Shown here: positions 58,142 to 64,000 of the stretch, piece by piece | Layout: each line of letters opens with the position of its first letter | Position numbering within the stretch: the first letter of the stretch is position 1 | The notes under the pieces: generated by a model | Database searches by the model: none | Told to the model about the DNA's origin: nothing | Seen by the model: the letters and a program-made list of their open reading frames with translations, nothing else | NCBI RefSeq assembly: GCF_000027125.1 | Contig: NC_017626.1 | DNA from: Escherichia coli 042 | GTDB lineage: Bacteria; Pseudomonadota; Gammaproteobacteria; Enterobacterales; Enterobacteriaceae | Strand: one strand, 5' to 3' | DNA length: 64,000 nt | Translations under genes and position numbers: made by a program

Positions 58142-59620
58142 ATGTCGAAAAAATACATCATAGGGATTGATGGCGGAAGTCAGAGCACAAAAGTGGTGAT
58201 GTATGATCTGGAAGGTAATGTGGTTTGCGAAGGCAAAGACTTATTGCAGCCGATGCACACGCCAGATGCCGATACCGCAGAACATCCTGACGACGATTTA
58301 TGGGCATCATTATGTTTTGCCGGTCACGATTTGATGAGTCAGTTTGCCGGGAATAAAGAAGATATTGTCGGTATTGGTCTGGGCTCCATCCGTTGCTGCC
58401 GTGCGTTATTGAAAGCCGATGGCACGCCAGCTGCGCCGTTGATTAGCTGGCAGGATGCACGCGTTACACGCCCTTACGAACATACGAATCCTGACGTGGC
58501 ATATGTCACCTCTTTTTCAGGTTATCTGACGCATCGCTTAACCGGCGAGTTTAAAGACAATATCGCCAACTATTTTGGTCAGTGGCCGGTGGATTATAAG
58601 ACCTGGGCATGGAGTGAAGATGCCGCAGTCATGGAGAAGTTTAATATCCCCCGTCATATGCTGTTTGATGTGCAAATGCCTGGCACCGTCCTCGGACATA
58701 TCACACCACAAGCCGCACTGGCGACACATTTCCCGGCAGGACTGCCGGTTGTTTGTACCACCAGTGATAAACCGGTAGAAGCTCTGGGGGCCGGATTACT
58801 GGATAATGAAACTGCGGTAATTTCTCTTGGCACTTACATCGCATTGATGATGAACGGCAAAGCACTGCCGAAAGATCCGGTGGCGTACTGGCCAATTATG
58901 TCTTCTATTCCGCAAACATTGCTGTATGAAGGTTACGGTATCCGCAAAGGCATGTGGACAGTGAGCTGGCTGCGCGACATGTTAGGCGAGTCGTTAATTC
59001 AGGATGCCAAAGCACAGGATCTTTCACCGGAAGATTTACTCAACAAGAAAGCGTCTTGTGTGCCGCCTGGCTGTAATGGTCTGATGACGGTGCTGGACTG
59101 GCTGACCAATCCGTGGGAACCGTACAAACGCGGGATTATGATCGGCTTTGATTCCAGCATGGATTACGCATGGATATATCGTTCGATACTGGAAAGCGTG
59201 GCGCTGACGCTGAAGAACAATTACGACAATATGTGTAATGAAATGAATCACTTTGCAAAGCATGTGATCATTACTGGCGGTGGTTCGAACAGCGATCTGT
59301 TTATGCAGATTTTTGCCGACGTGTTCAACCTTCCGGCACGACGTAACGCCATTAATGGTTGTGCAAGTCTGGGGGCAGCGATTAATACGGCGGTAGGTCT
59401 GGGGCTATACCCGGATTACGCAACGGCTGTCGACAAAATGGTTCGCATGAAAGATATCTTTATGCCTGTTGAGAGCAACGCCAAACGCTACGACGCGATG
59501 AATAAAGGCATTTTCAAAGACCTAACCAAACACACTGATGTGATCCTGAAAAAATCGTATGAAGTGATGCATGGTGAGCTGGGGAATGAAGATTCGATCC
59601 AGAGCTGGTCGAATGCGTAA
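58142..59620 (+). CDS. ygcE: FGGY-family carbohydrate kinase
   Basis: 492 aa; N-terminal IIGIDGGSQSTK sugar-kinase motif. Confidence 0.9.
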   Translation: MSKKYIIGIDGGSQSTKVVMYDLEGNVVCEGKDLLQPMHTPDADTAEHPDDDLWASLCFAGHDLMSQFAGNKEDIVGIGLGSIRCCRALLKADGTPAAPLISWQDARVTRPYEHTNPDVAYVTSFSGYLTHRLTGEFKDNIANYFGQWPVDYKTWAWSEDAAVMEKFNIPRHMLFDVQMPGTVLGHITPQAALATHFPAGLPVVCTTSDKPVEALGAGLLDNETAVISLGTYIALMMNGKALPKDPVAYWPIMSSIPQTLLYEGYGIRKGMWTVSWLRDMLGESLIQDAKAQDLSPEDLLNKKASCVPPGCNGLMTVLDWLTNPWEPYKRGIMIGFDSSMDYAWIYRSILESVALTLKNNYDNMCNEMNHFAKHVIITGGGSNSDLFMQIFADVFNLPARRNAINGCASLGAAINTAVGLGLYPDYATAVDKMVRMKDIFMPVESNAKRYDAMNKGIFKDLTKHTDVILKKSYEVMHGELGNEDSIQSWSNA

Positions 59621-59666
59621 GTGAGGAAGACCGGGCGGGAAACTGCCCGGCCTGAACATACCTGAA

Positions 59667-59804
59667 TGGTTATCCCCGCTGACGCGGGGAACATAAGTTC
59701 GACAACTTAAAAAATGATAACAAGTCCGGTTTATCCCCGCTGATGCAGGGAACATAATAAAAACTTTAACTAGTTCGGTTTATCCCTGTTTTTACAAGGA
59801 ATAT
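59667..59804 (-). CRISPR. degenerate CRISPR remnant (3 decayed I-E repeats)
   Basis: tggttatccccgctgacgcggggaacat, cggtttatccccgctgatgcagggaacat, cggtttatccctgtttttacaaggaatat, separated by 32-nt and 20-nt spacers. Confidence 0.7.
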
Positions 59805-60257
59805 TAACTACACTCGATGTCTTTAGAATAAAAGACAATACGAATCGCACTTTATCAATTTTCACTTAAAGTATGAACTGGATATCTTTATTCATAAGAA
59901 CTATTCATCAACAGCGTATAGAGGCGATTATGTAAAATCACTCATTAGCCTCAAAACAAAGACAAATTTCCAGATTTATTACTTAATCAATGAATAATAA
60001 GCTTAAAAAATACACTGTTATTCTAAAGAAAAAATTAACAGGCATTAATTAATATTAAAAAAATAATATATTAAAATTTCTTAACGATTTAAGAATCATA
60101 CAAATAACACTTTGATTAAATTTAATTTTTTGTATCGATAATTGTGAACTTCTCTGGCATGGAGAACTATTTTGAACATGAGGTGTTACGTGGATATGTT
60201 GCTTATTACAAGTACTGCTAATATAAAAACTTGAGAAAGAGATAACGGGTTATATGG

Positions 60258-60408
60258 TGGTTTATCCCCGCTGGCGCGGGGAACTCTTGGCATAGGCGCT
60301 ATAGCGGCGCTCTGTGTCCGGTTTATCCCCGCTGACGTGGGGAACTCAAAGACAAATTTCTTTGTTCCTATGGCCAGACCGGTTTATCCCCGCTGGCGCG
60401 GGGAACTC
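60258..60408 (-). CRISPR. second type I-E CRISPR array: 3 repeats, 2 spacers of 32 nt
   Basis: Repeats at 60258, 60319, 60380 ((t/c)ggtttatccccgctg(g/a)cg(c/t)ggggaactc); 61-nt period. Confidence 0.9.
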
Positions 60409-60540
60409 TCTAAACATAACCTATTATTAATTAATGATTTTTTAAGCCAGTCACAATCTACCAACTTTACAGTATCACACAAACAACACATCCATTATGT
60501 TAAAGAGCATTTAATCCATTGATTAAAAAGATAAATATTT
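60409..60540 (-). promoter_or_regulatory. leader of the second CRISPR array
   Basis: AT-rich; motif acaatctaccaact at 60453..60466, 45 nt from the last repeat, matching the first leader (46 nt). Confidence 0.75.
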
Positions 60541-60746
60541 GAAATAACTCTATTCAAACTAAAATCTACCAAATTTCACCGCAATAATTTTCACTCCAAC
60601 GAAAAATTAACGCCATAAAATTTGTAGAGAATGATAATGATTAGTTCAGGATGGGCAAAATGGAGGTTTTTCAGAGGCGACAAAGAATATAAATGAGTAG
60701 AAGTCTTTACAGGTTCCACCCATTTATAACGCTTATAAATGTTTAA

Positions 60747-61418
60747 TCAGGCAATATTTAAATATTTATGCGTTTGCATCGACAAACGCCAGTTGCGCGC
60801 AATGCACGTATCGATACATAAACGAGTAGCATCATCCTTTTGGCTAATCGGCTGCAGTGCAATGACTCGCGGTTTATCATCGGTCAGTGTTGCCAGTAGT
60901 TCATCCAGTGCTTCAATATCACGTACGCGTCCCACTGGATGCTTGATTTCGTTGGCTCGCTCCAGTGCCTGTGACAACACTTCATAGCCGCCGCGCATGT
61001 TCAGCTTTGGCGATACGGTAACCCAGGTATTCGGTGTGCAGCGTACCTCATGAGTACCACTGGTTTCGATCTGGCAGCTAAAACCGTTCTTTTCGAGCAG
61101 GTCAGTCAGTGGCAGCAAATCATGAATGCAAGGCTCACCACCCGTAATCACCACATGCCGCGCGGTGTATCCCTGGCGACCAATGACAGCCAGCAAGTCT
61201 TCACTGCTCGCCGCCCCCCACTTATCACTCTCTTTGGTCTTCGCCAGAATGCTGAAAAGGGAGACTTCCCGATCCTCAAGCTTTTCCCAGGTGTGTTTGG
61301 TGTCGCACCAGGCACAGCCAACCGGGCATCCCTGTAAACGAATAAAAATGGCGGGGACGCCGGTAAAGTAACCCTCACCTTGCAGGGTCTGGAACATCTC
61401 GTTAATCGGGTACTGCAT
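60747..61418 (-). CDS. queE: 7-carboxy-7-deazaguanine synthase (radical SAM)
   Basis: 223 aa; CPVGCAWCDT radical-SAM cysteine motif. Confidence 0.93.
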   Translation of the reverse strand: MQYPINEMFQTLQGEGYFTGVPAIFIRLQGCPVGCAWCDTKHTWEKLEDREVSLFSILAKTKESDKWGAASSEDLLAVIGRQGYTARHVVITGGEPCIHDLLPLTDLLEKNGFSCQIETSGTHEVRCTPNTWVTVSPKLNMRGGYEVLSQALERANEIKHPVGRVRDIEALDELLATLTDDKPRVIALQPISQKDDATRLCIDTCIARNWRLSMQTHKYLNIA

Positions 61419-61590
61419 AGCATTCTCTGTGAAGTGGATAATTGTTAATTATTGCAGATCCTGCCACAACAATCATGTCTTATTAACATTCTGTTACAGG
61501 CAGGTTTAAGGCAAAAAGTGGATGAGATCATAAAGAATAAAATGAAGCGGCGTATTATGTTTTAAGGAATTAATTAAAAGGGACATAGAC

Positions 61591-62193
61591 ATGCTCAGGA
61601 TATTCATCGTAATTATATTTATTGCCAATTTATCAGGCTGTGGATATAACGATATTCAAACCTATGATGAGCAGGTTAACGCCTCCTGGTCTGAGGTATT
61701 GAATCAATATCAACGTCGCGCCGATCTTATTCCTAATCTTGTCGCCAGTATTAAAGGTTATTCCAGCCATGAACAAGAGGTACTGGAAGCCGTAACATTG
61801 GCACGTAGCCAGGCTAATCGCGCCAGTAGCGATCTTCAGCAAGCTCCGGGAGATGCGCAAAAATTACAAGCCTGGCAACAAGCCCAGGCGCAGGTGTCTC
61901 GCACTCTCGGTCAGTTAACGATAATTAGTGAACGTTACCCTGATTTAAAAGCTCAGGAACTCTATCAAAATTTAATGGTACAGCTCGAAGGAAGTGAAAA
62001 TAGAATTGCCGTTGCGCGAGGAAGATATATTAAAGCCATTGAACAATATAATGTCACTATCCGCAAATTCCCCGCTGTATTAACCGCAAAGGTCATGGAT
62101 TACACACCGAAGAAAAATTATTTGCCGGATGACGTCGCAGCTGTGAGTAAAGCACCAATAATAGATTTTAGCCAGAATGCTAATGCGCATTAA
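61591..62193 (+). CDS. lemA: LemA-family lipoprotein
   Basis: 200 aa; lipobox LSGC; LemA-family similarity. Confidence 0.8.
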   Translation: MLRIFIVIIFIANLSGCGYNDIQTYDEQVNASWSEVLNQYQRRADLIPNLVASIKGYSSHEQEVLEAVTLARSQANRASSDLQQAPGDAQKLQAWQQAQAQVSRTLGQLTIISERYPDLKAQELYQNLMVQLEGSENRIAVARGRYIKAIEQYNVTIRKFPAVLTAKVMDYTPKKNYLPDDVAAVSKAPIIDFSQNANAH

Positions 62194-62206
62194 GCGGGGA
62201 AGTTAT

Positions 62207-63100
62207 ATGCGAAATTTTATCTTCCTTATGGCTTTCTTCTGTTCATCTGTGTTTGCCACACAAATTCCAGTACCTGAATCACCCAGGTATGTGAATGACT
62301 TAACCGGCACATTGACAAACAGTGAAGTAAACACCCTGACCAACCAGATTAAAGCCCTGACGCAAAAAAACAACGCACAGTTGGTCGTGTTAGTGGTTGA
62401 AACAACAGGCGATGAAACCATCGAGCAGTACGCAACGCGGGTATTCGATAGCTGGAAACCGGGTGATAAAGACCGCGATGATGGCGTTCTACTGTTAGTC
62501 GCCTGGCAGGATAATACCGTGCGTATTGAAATTGGTTACGGACTGGAAGGTATTATTACGGATGCGCAGTCCGGGAAAATTATTCGCAACAGTATTATTC
62601 CGGCATTTAAAAAAGGCGACCTGGCTGGCGGTTTACAAAAGGGGATCAGCGATATTGAAAGTCGTCTGACGGGGAATAATTTAGCAACGATAACACCGAC
62701 CGATTACCCTTTGCCCTTTAGTGGTTGGTGGGCTTTGTTAGTCTGGGCGATAGTACTGACGTTTATTTCTGCCAGAGGATATGTCAAAACACTGGGACTA
62801 ATTTGCTTCGCAGCTATTGTACTGGCCTTTGTTTTACCTATAGCAGGTTTCAGCGGAAGCTGGGGAGTGCTCGCAACATTACTCTGCTTCGCCACACCGT
62901 TCCTGGCTGTCGCCATCGCTTTTACTCCCTTCGGCAAAAAGGTTCGGGATTCGATGCGTAATACCAACCAGCCATCACGCCATACAAGAAACAATTCTTC
63001 CTCCCACTATTCGTCATCGTCATCCTCTTCATTCGACAATGACAATTTCCGCGGTGGTGGCGGTTCATCTGGTGGCGGTGGCGCTTCCGGGCGCTGGTAA
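62207..63100 (+). CDS. ygcG: TPM-domain membrane protein with Gly/Ser-rich C-terminal tail
   Basis: About 297 aa from MRNFIF; signal peptide, TPM domain, TM segments, tail SSSHYSSSSSSSFDNDNFRGGGGSSGGGGASGRW. Confidence 0.8.
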   Translation: MRNFIFLMAFFCSSVFATQIPVPESPRYVNDLTGTLTNSEVNTLTNQIKALTQKNNAQLVVLVVETTGDETIEQYATRVFDSWKPGDKDRDDGVLLLVAWQDNTVRIEIGYGLEGIITDAQSGKIIRNSIIPAFKKGDLAGGLQKGISDIESRLTGNNLATITPTDYPLPFSGWWALLVWAIVLTFISARGYVKTLGLICFAAIVLAFVLPIAGFSGSWGVLATLLCFATPFLAVAIAFTPFGKKVRDSMRNTNQPSRHTRNNSSSHYSSSSSSSFDNDNFRGGGGSSGGGGASGRW

Positions 63101-63114
63101 CAAAAGGAATTGAT

Positions 63115-64000
63115 ATGCGTATTTTTCTCTTACTTCTGATGCTATGCGGTTTTCAGGTATTCGCTGAACGATTGCCTTCAGTGACTGACTTAACCGGGAC
63201 ATTAACGACAGAAGAACAAAGTGCTTTAAATCAACAATTACAGACTCTCGAGCAGCAAAACCACTTCCAGGTGGCCGTGTTGGTTACGCCGACCACAGGG
63301 GGCAAAAATATTAAACTTGCAGCCTCGCAGAGCTACGGGTTATATCACTGGAAACCCGTTGGAGAGAAGCGATATGGCGAAGGAATCTTAATTCTCGTCC
63401 TCTGGCCGGAAGGGCTGGCGTCAATGAAGATTGGACATGGACTGGAACAGATGTTGCCGCCGGAACAAGCTGCACAAATTGTTCGTTACCATATGCAGCC
63501 AGAATTCGAAAAAAACAATCTCTTTGCTGGATTAACGGGCGGAATTGAAAGCATCGCACAGTTTACCCATATCAAAGCGAACCTTAGCCCTTTGGATGCT
63601 TTAGCCAATCATCTGTTTGCTAATCCGCAACGTTCGCTGCCATGTCTTGCCTGGACACTGCTGATGATCGTTGCCATCGTTGTCCTCTGGCGATTTGCCA
63701 GCCGCCCAGGGCGTGGCATATGGATGATATCGATGATTACCCCTATGGTCTGGTTTTTCTTCTTTCAGGACGATGTCATCATTCGGCGGGTGTCGATCGT
63801 TTGTTTTAGTTTATTGTTCGCAACAACCTGCTGGCAGCGTCTCGCGGTAGTTTTTAATATGTGCCGCGCATTTCCTATGATGCTGGCCCCCAAAAATAAA
63901 AACACTAAAGTGAAAAAACAAAAGAAGACTCCGCAGGTTCGTGAATCAGGACGAAATTCATTGTTTGTCGTGATGCTGATAATTATTGTGGGATGGTGCC
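63115..64000 (+). CDS. second TPM-domain membrane protein (3' end beyond window)
   Basis: ATG at 63115; signal peptide MRIFLLLLMLCGFQVFA; TPM-like domain; not in ORF track, so presumably open to the window edge. Confidence 0.65.
   Translation, partial: MRIFLLLLMLCGFQVFAERLPSVTDLTGTLTTEEQSALNQQLQTLEQQNHFQVAVLVTPTTGGKNIKLAASQSYGLYHWKPVGEKRYGEGILILVLWPEGLASMKIGHGLEQMLPPEQAAQIVRYHMQPEFEKNNLFAGLTGGIESIAQFTHIKANLSPLDALANHLFANPQRSLPCLAWTLLMIVAIVVLWRFASRPGRGIWMISMITPMVWFFFFQDDVIIRRVSIVCFSLLFATTCWQRLAVVFNMCRAFPMMLAPKNKNTKVKKQKKTPQVRESGRNSLFVVMLIIIVGWC

What the first reader, a model, noticed from the sequence alone, without database searches (positions are those of the whole stretch)
61591..64000. 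LemA / TPM / TPM three-gene membrane module next to queE
A LemA lipoprotein is followed by two TPM-domain membrane proteins. The first has an unusual Ser- and Gly-rich low-complexity C-terminal tail; the second runs off the window edge. The module's role is poorly defined and it may be larger here than in K-12, where I recall only ygcG.
Basis: partly seen in the sequence, partly recalled or inferred. Interest (0 to 1): 0.35.

Follow-up and report, generated by a model that had tools for sequence, protein, structure and literature searches.

The report
LemA plus three TPM membrane genes

Summary
The window has lemA (61591-62193), a 297-aa TPM protein (62207-63100) and a second TPM gene (63115 onward) that is cut by the window edge.

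A genome that is 100% identical over 61400-64000 shows the second TPM gene runs to 382 aa. It is followed by a third TPM gene (297 aa) and a hairpin terminator before eno. The module therefore has four genes.

1102 of 5426 complete E. coli genomes carry this form. About 3929 carry the K-12 form (yqcG + ygcG), and 340 carry lemA + TPM + a 120-aa ORF.

The "unusual" Ser/Gly tail is a family hallmark. All paralogs, and 61 of 63 TPM genes next to lemA in other Proteobacteria, end in GGGG[AS]SGxW.

The lemA-TPM pairing is conserved: 63 of 69 loci with enough downstream sequence have it. TPM2 is restricted to Escherichia. All four genes are under purifying selection (dN/dS 0.04-0.43).

K-12 yqcG aligns collinearly and in frame with the 5' end of lemA, so it is probably a lemA relic.

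Function is unknown. My best guess is a periplasm-facing envelope complex in which the TPM domains act as accessory or assembly factors. A fused AlphaFold test of LemA-TPM contact was inconclusive (pTM 0.51).

Verdict: already known as annotation, low interest.

The parts
61419..61590 (.). Divergent queE-lemA intergenic region (172 bp), the presumed promoter region for both genes. It contains a candidate PhoP-box-like site at 61492-61508 (TGTTACAGGCAGGTTTA).
   Evidence: The queE-proximal ~90 bp are nearly identical between this haplotype and K-12; the lemA-proximal part diverges. In K-12, PhoP-P binds the 300 bp upstream of queE, and deleting yqcG raises queE expression (PMC4974570). The box match has 2 mismatches and is not significant on its own (21 matches in the window against 12.8 expected). 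No strong sigma-70 consensus was found.
61591..62193 (+). lemA: a 200-aa LemA-family protein with a lipoprotein signal peptide (lipobox LSGC, Cys17, nt 61630-61641).
   Evidence: PF04011 164 bits against a cut-off of 26.2. E 7e-33 to T. maritima LemA, PDB 2ETD. L-x-G-C-G-Y-N is invariant in 11 proteobacterial homologues. dN/dS 0.04-0.17.
62207..63100 (+). TPM1: a 297-aa protein with a signal peptide (62207-62257), a periplasmic TPM domain (62291-62659), three hydrophobic spans, and a basic Ser/Gly-rich tail (62933-63097) ending in GGGGSSGGGGASGRW (63053-63097).
   Evidence: PF04536 139 bits. E 2e-22 to PDB 7TBR and 6e-20 to BA41 (5ANP), which has the same tail. Hydropathy and charge support the topology. 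The gene starts 13 nt after the lemA stop. dN/dS 0.13-0.19.
63115..64000 (+). TPM2, 5' 886 nt of a 1149-nt gene (382 aa). It has a signal peptide (63115-63165), a divergent TPM domain (63181-63561), about five hydrophobic spans, and the same GGGGSSGGGGSSGRW end. The gene would end at window-equivalent position 64263.
   Evidence: PF04536 77 bits. The full length comes from Ecol_316, which is 100% identical over 61400-64000. Full-length homologues occur only in Escherichia. dN/dS 0.21-0.43.

Best explanation
The finding is the 5' three quarters of a four-gene chromosomal operon, lemA-TPM1-TPM2-TPM3, lying between queE and eno.

Shown:
- LemA has a lipoprotein signal, so its helical domain is in the periplasm.
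- Each TPM protein has a signal peptide, a ~150-aa acidic TPM domain (periplasmic), 3-5 membrane spans, and a basic Ser/Gly-rich tail (cytoplasmic by the positive-inside rule) ending in the conserved motif GGGG[AS]SGRW.
- The genes are 5-14 nt apart and are followed by one hairpin terminator.
- lemA followed by a long TPM gene is a conserved pair across alpha-, beta- and gamma-Proteobacteria.
- All four genes are under purifying selection.

Inferred:
- The proteins form a periplasm-facing envelope complex. The TPM domains act as non-catalytic, or only weakly catalytic, accessory or assembly factors that dock on membrane protein complexes. Psb32/TLP18.3, CcoZ, MSMEG_4692 and YdjH do this in other systems.
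- The three paralogs give different specificities.
- Expression comes from the queE-lemA divergent region, which in K-12 binds PhoP and drives the envelope-stress-induced small protein YqcG.
- K-12 and about 72% of E. coli carry a reduced form. There, lemA has decayed to the 46-aa yqcG ORF and only one TPM gene (ygcG, an allele of the fourth gene) remains.
For: Anatomy and domains.
Conserved pairing: 63 of 69 proteobacterial lemA loci with enough downstream sequence have a same-strand TPM gene immediately downstream, and 61 of these 63 end in the Gly-rich...W tail. Klebsiella has lemA + one TPM at the same queE|eno locus. E. albertii has the four-gene form.
Purifying selection: dN/dS 0.04-0.43.
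TPM domains as accessory or assembly factors: PMC11237479, 10.1101/2025.01.14.632903, PMC8267372, 10.1101/2025.05.08.652833.
PhoP binding upstream of queE and the effect of deleting yqcG: PMC4974570.
yqcG as a lemA relic: the DNA alignment is collinear, and the reading frame is shared over the signal-peptide codons. Identity is 69% over lemA nt 1-36 and 48% over nt 37-100, with permutation p about 3e-4.
ygcG residues 60-262 are 87% identical in protein (96.8% in DNA) to gene 4 of four-gene strains annotated O83:H1 and similar.
Population counts.
Against: No experiment links LemA or YgcG-type TPM proteins to any process; MamQ is the only LemA-family member tied to one.
BA41, BA42 and TLP18.3 have measurable phosphatase or ATPase activity (cited), so a catalytic role is not excluded.
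An AlphaFold2 model of mature LemA fused to the TPM1 domain, built with 36 paired sequences, gave pTM 0.51. That is no confident interface.
Most E. coli do without lemA, TPM1 and TPM2. O157:H7 has a nonsense codon in TPM1. IS insertions and deletions occur at the locus. The module is therefore dispensable.
The PhoP-box match is not significant on its own, and no PhoP or envelope-stress data exist for the lemA haplotype.
Confidence: 0.4

Rival explanations
1. The TPM domains are real periplasmic metal-dependent phosphatases or nucleotidases (ATPase/ADPase-like). The module hydrolyses a periplasmic phospho-compound, and LemA is an accessory protein.
For: TPM1 matches BA41 (PDB 5ANP, E 6e-20), which has the same architecture and tail, and it matches BA42. 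BA41 is reported to have ATPase/ADPase activity, BA42 phosphatase activity, and TLP18.3 low acid phosphatase activity (references listed). The family motifs (V-x-D-L-T..L, GYGLEG) are kept in all three paralogs.
Against: The reported activities are low. Two comparative-genomics analyses argue that the phosphatase assignment is unlikely and favour an assembly or chaperone-like role. Structurally placed TPM proteins (Psb32, MSMEG_4692, CcoZ) act as bound subunits or assembly factors. Three tandem paralogs with divergent membrane parts fit binding specificity better than a single enzymatic step.
Confidence: 0.2
2. In E. coli the module has no important function. It is a dispensable, decaying accessory locus, and its main present-day effect is in cis, on queE regulation through the shared PhoP-bound intergenic region.
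For: Only 1102 of 5426 genomes keep the four genes, and about 3929 have the reduced K-12 form. Independent lesions are seen: a nonsense codon in O157:H7 TPM1, an IS1-associated deletion, an IS4 insertion (H31), and frameshifted yqcG and ygcG. Deleting yqcG in K-12 changes queE expression. TPM2 dN/dS reaches 0.43.
Against: dN/dS is well below 1 for all four genes, including in comparison with E. albertii (0.04-0.21). The four-gene form is kept in a second Escherichia species. The lemA-TPM pair is conserved across Proteobacteria.
Confidence: 0.25
3. It is an anti-phage defence system or a mobile-element cargo locus, which would explain the hypervariable haplotypes.
For: There are several deeply divergent haplotypes at one chromosomal site, mosaic recombination within gene 4, and a CRISPR array next door.
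Against: None of the five proteins hits PADLOC. All 5410 matching places are chromosomal and none is on a plasmid. There are no integrase genes, tRNA genes or flanking repeats, the position between queE and eno is fixed, and the same locus is occupied in Klebsiella.
Confidence: 0.03

Closest known systems
Proteobacterial lemA - long TPM (YgcG/COG1512-type) - short TPM gene cluster; in Bacteroidota, BA41 and BA42 of Bizionia argentinensis
   Same: A LemA lipoprotein gene is immediately followed on the same strand by a TPM protein with a signal peptide, TPM domain, membrane span(s) and a Gly-rich tail ending in GGGGASGxW (63 of 69 loci). BA41 (PDB 5ANP) has the same tail.
   Different: Here the long TPM gene is present in three tandem paralogs. 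The short TPM partner is absent: it is about 165 aa, has no signal peptide, ends in NELPDxP, and occurs in 33 of 62 loci. TPM2, with about five spans, has full-length homologues only in Escherichia.
E. coli K-12 yqcG-ygcG
   Same: It sits in the same chromosomal slot between queE and eno and has the same queE-proximal intergenic DNA. ygcG is a long TPM protein with the identical GGGGSSGGGGASGRW end. Its codons 60-290 are an allele of gene 4 as found in some four-gene strains.
   Different: K-12 lacks lemA (only a 46-aa relic ORF, yqcG, remains), TPM1 and TPM2. YgcG is only 45-48% identical to TPM1 and TPM3 of this window.
TPM-domain accessory or assembly factors: Psb32/TLP18.3 (photosystem II), CcoZ (C. 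jejuni cbb3 oxidase), MSMEG_4692 (mycobacterial CIII-CIV supercomplex), YdjH (B. subtilis PspA operon)
   Same: All have a TPM domain on the extracytoplasmic or lumenal side, anchored to the membrane. YdjH also has a low-complexity segment after the domain.
   Different: No partner complex is known here. The Psb32 equivalog score is far below its cut-off (38 against 160 bits). The gene neighbourhoods differ: lemA here, against psb, cco or pspA genes in the other systems.
MamQ (magnetosome LemA-family protein) and T. maritima LemA (PDB 2ETD)
   Same: The helical LemA domain is shared (E 7e-33 to 2ETD; MamQ model E 1e-26), and it is membrane-anchored at the N-terminus.
   Different: The MamQ equivalog cut-off is not met (94 against 250 bits). 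The anchor here is a lipobox rather than a transmembrane helix, and there is no magnetosome context.

Membership tests
LemA family (Pfam PF04011) | Profile match above the Pfam gathering score, covering the whole domain | tested here: met
   164.4 bits against a cut-off of 26.2, profile positions 1-149 of 149. E 7e-33 to PDB 2ETD.
LemA family (Pfam PF04011) | N-terminal membrane anchor (a lipobox in Proteobacteria) | tested here: met
   MLRIFIVIIFIANLSGC. L-x-G-C-G-Y-N is invariant in 11 homologues. The hydrophobic segment spans residues 1-20. Lipidation itself was not tested.
MamQ (NCBIfam NF040966, equivalog) | Score at or above the curated cut-off | tested here: not met
   93.8 bits against a cut-off of 250.
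TPM domain (Pfam PF04536) | Profile match above the gathering score | tested here: met
   TPM1 scores 139 bits and TPM2 77.2 bits against a cut-off of 22.1. TPM1 matches PDB 7TBR, 5ANP and 2KW7 at E 1e-19 to 2e-22. TPM3 was not run against Pfam. It is annotated as TPM by PGAP and is 42% identical to TPM1.
YgcG-type long TPM membrane proteins | Signal peptide + TPM domain + transmembrane span(s) + Gly-rich C-terminal tail ending ...GGGG[AS]SGxW | tested here: met
   All three paralogs and K-12 YgcG have this architecture. The same tail is found in 61 of 63 lemA-adjacent TPM genes and in BA41.
Canonical lemA - long TPM - short TPM cluster | lemA directly upstream of a long TPM gene on the same strand | tested here: met
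   The gap is 13 nt. The pattern holds in 63 of 69 loci.
Canonical lemA - long TPM - short TPM cluster | A third gene encoding a short (~165 aa) TPM protein without a signal peptide, ending in NELPDxP | tested here: not met
   It is absent from L001; genes 3 and 4 are both long-type. It is present in 33 of 62 other loci.
Psb32 (NCBIfam NF047379, equivalog) | Score at or above the curated cut-off | tested here: not met
   34-40 bits against a cut-off of 160.
TPM phosphatase / ATPase-ADPase (BA41, BA42, TLP18.3) | Measured metal-dependent phosphohydrolase activity | not testable with these tools
   Only sequence similarity to BA41 and BA42 is available.
Known anti-phage defence systems (PADLOC-DB) | Any protein matching a defence-system model | tested here: not met
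   None of the five proteins matched at E <= 0.01.

The most novel reading that the evidence does not exclude
The lemA-TPM operon is the intact form of a PhoP-linked envelope module. In it, an outer-membrane-targeted LemA lipoprotein (Gly at +2) and inner-membrane TPM proteins bridge the periplasm, and the invariant cytoplasmic GGGG[AS]SGxW end is a docking or signalling motif. In most E. coli lineages, K-12 included, decay of lemA created the small stress protein YqcG and changed how queE is controlled, and with it PhoQ-dependent filamentation. The narrower claim, that yqcG is a lemA relic, is much better supported; I put it at roughly 0.8.
Probability: 0.08. Interest if true: 0.55.

Novelty: already known. 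Interest (0 to 1): 0.2.

Why it matters
The practical value is small. The result shows that K-12 is a poor model for this locus. About one fifth of E. coli, including O157:H7, ATCC 25922 and E. albertii-like lineages, carry an intact lemA and three TPM genes that K-12 lacks.

LemA and YgcG-type TPM proteins are widespread and conserved as a pair, yet neither has an assigned function. A four-gene strain is therefore the right background for deletion, topology and pull-down experiments.

The link to yqcG gives a concrete example of a characterised small protein that arose from the remains of a larger gene. It also suggests that the envelope-stress and PhoP responsiveness seen for yqcG and queE in K-12 may reflect how the ancestral lemA operon was regulated.

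The deeply conserved C-terminal GGGG[AS]SGxW motif is an unexplained feature that can be tested directly.

Tried and rejected
1. AlphaFold2 on mature LemA fused by a 20-residue linker to the TPM1 periplasmic domain, with 36 paired LemA/TPM rows from different Proteobacteria. The result was pTM 0.51, with the TPM domain at pLDDT about 95 and LemA at about 75. There is no confident interface. The test is inconclusive because the alignment is shallow, the linker is artificial and no PAE is available.

2. K-12 ygcG as a TPM1::TPM3 deletion chimera. Rejected: residues 1-59 are 34% identical to TPM1 and 39-41% to TPM3 or gene 4, so they cannot be assigned to either. Only the 3' part (from L002 6489) is clearly an allele of gene 4.

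3. Search for an intermediate haplotype (intact lemA with K-12-type ygcG) using the YgcG N-terminus. It returned only E. coli fragments, a dead end.

4. PhoP box. There is one match with 2 mismatches at 61492-61508, but such matches are not enriched in the window, so it stays a candidate only.

5. Sigma-70 promoter scan. Nothing convincing lies upstream of lemA.

6. Rfam over 59400-64000: no family matched.

7. PADLOC: no hits.

8. Literature. There is no paper on the LemA-TPM module. The ygcG and yqcG mentions are incidental apart from PMC4974570. Hemm et al. 2010, the source of the envelope-stress annotation of YqcG, is not held. That point rests on the RefSeq product name, the EcoCyc function as quoted in PMC5821084, and my own recollection.

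9. The RefSeq 'pseudogene, missing C-terminus' flags on TPM1 in several strains were checked and rejected. The ORFs are intact.
Full report
**1. Observation.**
The ORF list and the sequence show the following on the + strand, after the divergent queE gene (60747-61418, - strand):
- lemA at 61591-62193 (200 aa);
- an ORF whose annotated start is the ATG at 62207 and which ends at 63100 (297 aa; TPM1);
- an ORF starting at 63115 that is still open at 64000 (295 codons; TPM2).

Pfam confirms LemA (PF04011, 164 bits) and the TPM domain (PF04536) in TPM1 (139 bits) and TPM2 (77 bits). LemA begins MLRIFIVIIFIANLSGC, a lipoprotein signal with Cys17. TPM1 ends in a 55-residue tail with 15 Ser and 10 Gly.

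**2. What lies beyond the window.**
Megablast of 61400-64000 against 5426 complete E. coli genomes found strain Ecol_316 at 100% identity. Upstream of about 61300 the window and Ecol_316 differ slightly (98.4% identity, with a different CRISPR spacer content). Ecol_316 is therefore a proxy for the window, not its source.

In Ecol_316 (L001; window coordinate = L001 + 55399):
- TPM2 is 382 aa.
- Five nucleotides later comes a third TPM gene, TPM3 (297 aa).
- Next comes a hairpin, GCCAGCC-cgaa-GGCTGGC, flanked by A and T runs.
- Then comes the convergent eno gene.

Gaps between the four genes are 13, 14 and 5 nt. The module is therefore a four-gene unit, lemA-TPM1-TPM2-TPM3.

**3. Protein anatomy.**
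Each TPM protein has, in order:
- an N-terminal signal peptide;
- an acidic TPM domain of about 150 aa;
- three hydrophobic spans (TPM1, TPM3, K-12 YgcG) or about five (TPM2);
- a tail rich in Lys/Arg and then Ser/Gly.

By the positive-inside rule, the TPM domain is periplasmic and the tail cytoplasmic. This is an inference.

All three paralogs and K-12 YgcG end in GGGGSSGGGG[AS]SGRW, although they are only 30-48% identical elsewhere. The same ending occurs in Klebsiella, Brenneria and Pseudomonas homologues. It also occurs in BA41 of the Bacteroidota species Bizionia argentinensis (PDB 5ANP...GGGGASGGW). The tail is a conserved family signature, not an oddity.

**4. Conservation of the module.**
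A scan of one genome per species with a LemA alignment returned 80 proteobacterial loci.
- Of the 69 with at least 1.3 kb downstream, 63 have a TPM gene on the same strand directly after lemA, and 61 of these end in the Gly-rich...W tail.
- Of the 62 with at least 2.2 kb downstream, 33 also have a short TPM gene of about 165 aa, with no signal peptide, ending in NELPDxP.

The canonical cluster is therefore lemA, then a long TPM, then often a short TPM. Escherichia differs by having three long-type genes and no short one.

Klebsiella quasipneumoniae has lemA plus a single TPM gene in the same queE|eno slot. E. albertii has the four-gene form. Full-length TPM2 homologues (>=78% identity) were found only in Escherichia; the next hits cover only the TPM domain, at <=41% identity. 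That search has limited sensitivity.

Nei-Gojobori dN/dS against O157:H7, an O83:H1 strain and E. albertii is 0.04-0.17 for lemA, 0.13-0.19 for TPM1, 0.21-0.43 for TPM2 and 0.11 for TPM3 (like-for-like alleles). For the neighbours queE and eno it is <=0.02. The four genes are functional but less constrained than their housekeeping neighbours.

**5. Population structure in E. coli.**
| Haplotype | Gene content | Genomes |
|---|---|---|
| A | lemA + 3 TPM (>=80% of the 3.8-kb interval) | 1102 of 5426 |
| C (K-12 type) | yqcG + ygcG | 3929 |
| B | lemA + a divergent but intact TPM1 (79% aa identity) + an unrelated 120-aa membrane ORF | 340 |

The remaining genomes include IS-associated deletions. 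All matches are chromosomal.

Within haplotype A, some strains (NRG 857C, GABEEC10) carry a mosaic fourth gene. Its first ~180 nt resemble TPM3, and the rest is 96.8% identical in DNA to K-12 ygcG. K-12 ygcG is therefore an allele of the fourth gene. Its first 59 codons, and the DNA upstream of them, belong to a deeply diverged lineage that I could not assign.

O157:H7 has a TTA-to-TGA nonsense change at TPM1 codon 225. Several RefSeq records flag an intact TPM1 as 'missing C-terminus', apparently by comparison with that truncated protein.

**6. yqcG as a lemA relic.**
Homology between haplotype A and K-12 runs through queE and the intergenic region, then fades 33 nt into lemA.

A multiple alignment shows that the K-12 sequence remains collinear with the start of lemA. 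Identity is 69% over lemA nt 1-36 and 48% over nt 37-100. The permutation p is about 3e-4, somewhat optimistic because the alignment was optimised first.

The yqcG ORF starts at an ATG in what is the lemA 5' UTR; in haplotype A that ATG is followed by a stop two codons later. From there yqcG reads in the lemA frame through the signal-peptide codons (IIFI in both). It has lost the lipobox Cys and stops after 46 codons, 13 nt before ygcG.

I conclude with about 0.8 confidence that yqcG is what remains of lemA. Whether the K-12 lineage also lost TPM1 and TPM2, or descends from a two-gene ancestor like that of Klebsiella, is unresolved.

**7. Function.**
The literature held here contains no study of the LemA-TPM module.
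- LemA: MamQ is the only family member linked to a process.
- TPM domains: there are two views.
  - Weak phosphatase or ATPase/ADPase activity, reported for BA41, BA42 and TLP18.3 (references).
  - A chaperone-like or assembly role for membrane complexes, argued from genomic context. This is consistent with Psb32 on photosystem II and with CcoZ and MSMEG_4692 on respiratory complexes.
- In K-12, phosphorylated PhoP binds the 300 bp upstream of queE and the next 300 bp, and deleting yqcG raises queE expression.
- yqcG is annotated as a cell-envelope stress response protein. The primary paper is not held.

I therefore favour a periplasm-facing envelope complex in which the TPM domains act as accessory or assembly factors, expressed from the shared queE-lemA control region. 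This is an inference from context, not a demonstrated mechanism (confidence 0.4).

An AlphaFold2 test of LemA-TPM1 contact was inconclusive (pTM 0.51). PADLOC gave no hits, and Rfam found nothing.

**8. Novelty and verdict.**
The genes are annotated in more than a thousand RefSeq genomes, and the lemA-TPM pairing is a widespread conserved neighbourhood, so the feature is already known.

This work adds:
- the fourth gene;
- the finding that the tail is a family hallmark;
- the Escherichia-specific TPM2;
- the haplotype frequencies;
- the probable origin of yqcG from lemA.

Interest is low (0.2).

Noticed in passing
window 59667-59805 and 60259-60409: Two short CRISPR arrays with type I-E repeats (GGTTTATCCCCGCTGGCGCGGGGAACTC) lie between ygcE and queE. 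The first has three degenerate copies; the second has three good copies at 61-nt spacing. Spacer content differs from Ecol_316, even though the lemA region is identical.
   Followed up: partly
L002 6158-6298 (K-12-type yqcG), compared with window 61557-61700: The small-protein gene yqcG aligns collinearly and in frame with the 5' UTR and first ~100 nt of lemA. It appears to be a relic of lemA that has lost the lipobox cysteine.
   Followed up: yes
L003 6808-7479, L093 2289-2960, L094 2289-2960: RefSeq/PGAP annotates TPM1 as an incomplete pseudogene ('missing C-terminus') in these genomes. The ORFs are in fact intact to the GGGGASGRW end. The 224-codon annotated length equals the truncated O157:H7 protein, which suggests an annotation artefact.
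   Followed up: yes
L092 2961-2963 (O157:H7 NE1127): There is a TTA-to-TGA nonsense mutation at codon 225 of TPM1. It removes the last membrane span and the tail, and the downstream sequence is otherwise conserved.
   Followed up: partly
L001 13865-13961 compared with L002 11286-12018: The mazEF toxin-antitoxin genes found between mazG and relA in K-12-type genomes are absent in Ecol_316, the genome identical to the window at the lemA locus. This region lies outside the window.
   Followed up: no
L004, L005 and L093, upstream of queE: In some strains the yqcE-ygcE-CRISPR segment upstream of queE is replaced by a sucrose utilisation cluster (porin, PTS IIBC, sucrose-6-phosphate hydrolase, LacI-type regulator). 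Both flanks of queE are therefore variable.
   Followed up: no
L003 7749-8111: Haplotype B carries an unrelated 120-aa ORF with two hydrophobic segments in place of TPM2 and TPM3. It is present in 340 genomes at >=99% identity and has no Pfam, NCBIfam or PADLOC match.
   Followed up: partly
queE: window 60747-61418, compared with L002, L092 and L094: Synonymous divergence of queE between E. coli haplotypes (dS 0.11-0.17) is two to three times that of eno on the other side of the module (0.04-0.05). Old or imported alleles seem to extend into queE.
   Followed up: partly
L019, L025, L031, L047 and others, about 0.7-1.1 kb downstream of lemA: About half of proteobacterial lemA loci have a third gene for a short TPM protein of about 165 aa. 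It lacks a signal peptide and ends in a conserved NELPDxP motif. It is presumably cytoplasmic and is absent from E. coli.
   Followed up: partly
L001 9776-9800 (window-equivalent 65175-65199): A perfect 7-bp hairpin (GCCAGCC cgaa GGCTGGC), flanked by an A run and a T run, lies between the TPM3 and eno stop codons. It is a likely bidirectional terminator, and the consensus scan did not list it.
   Followed up: no
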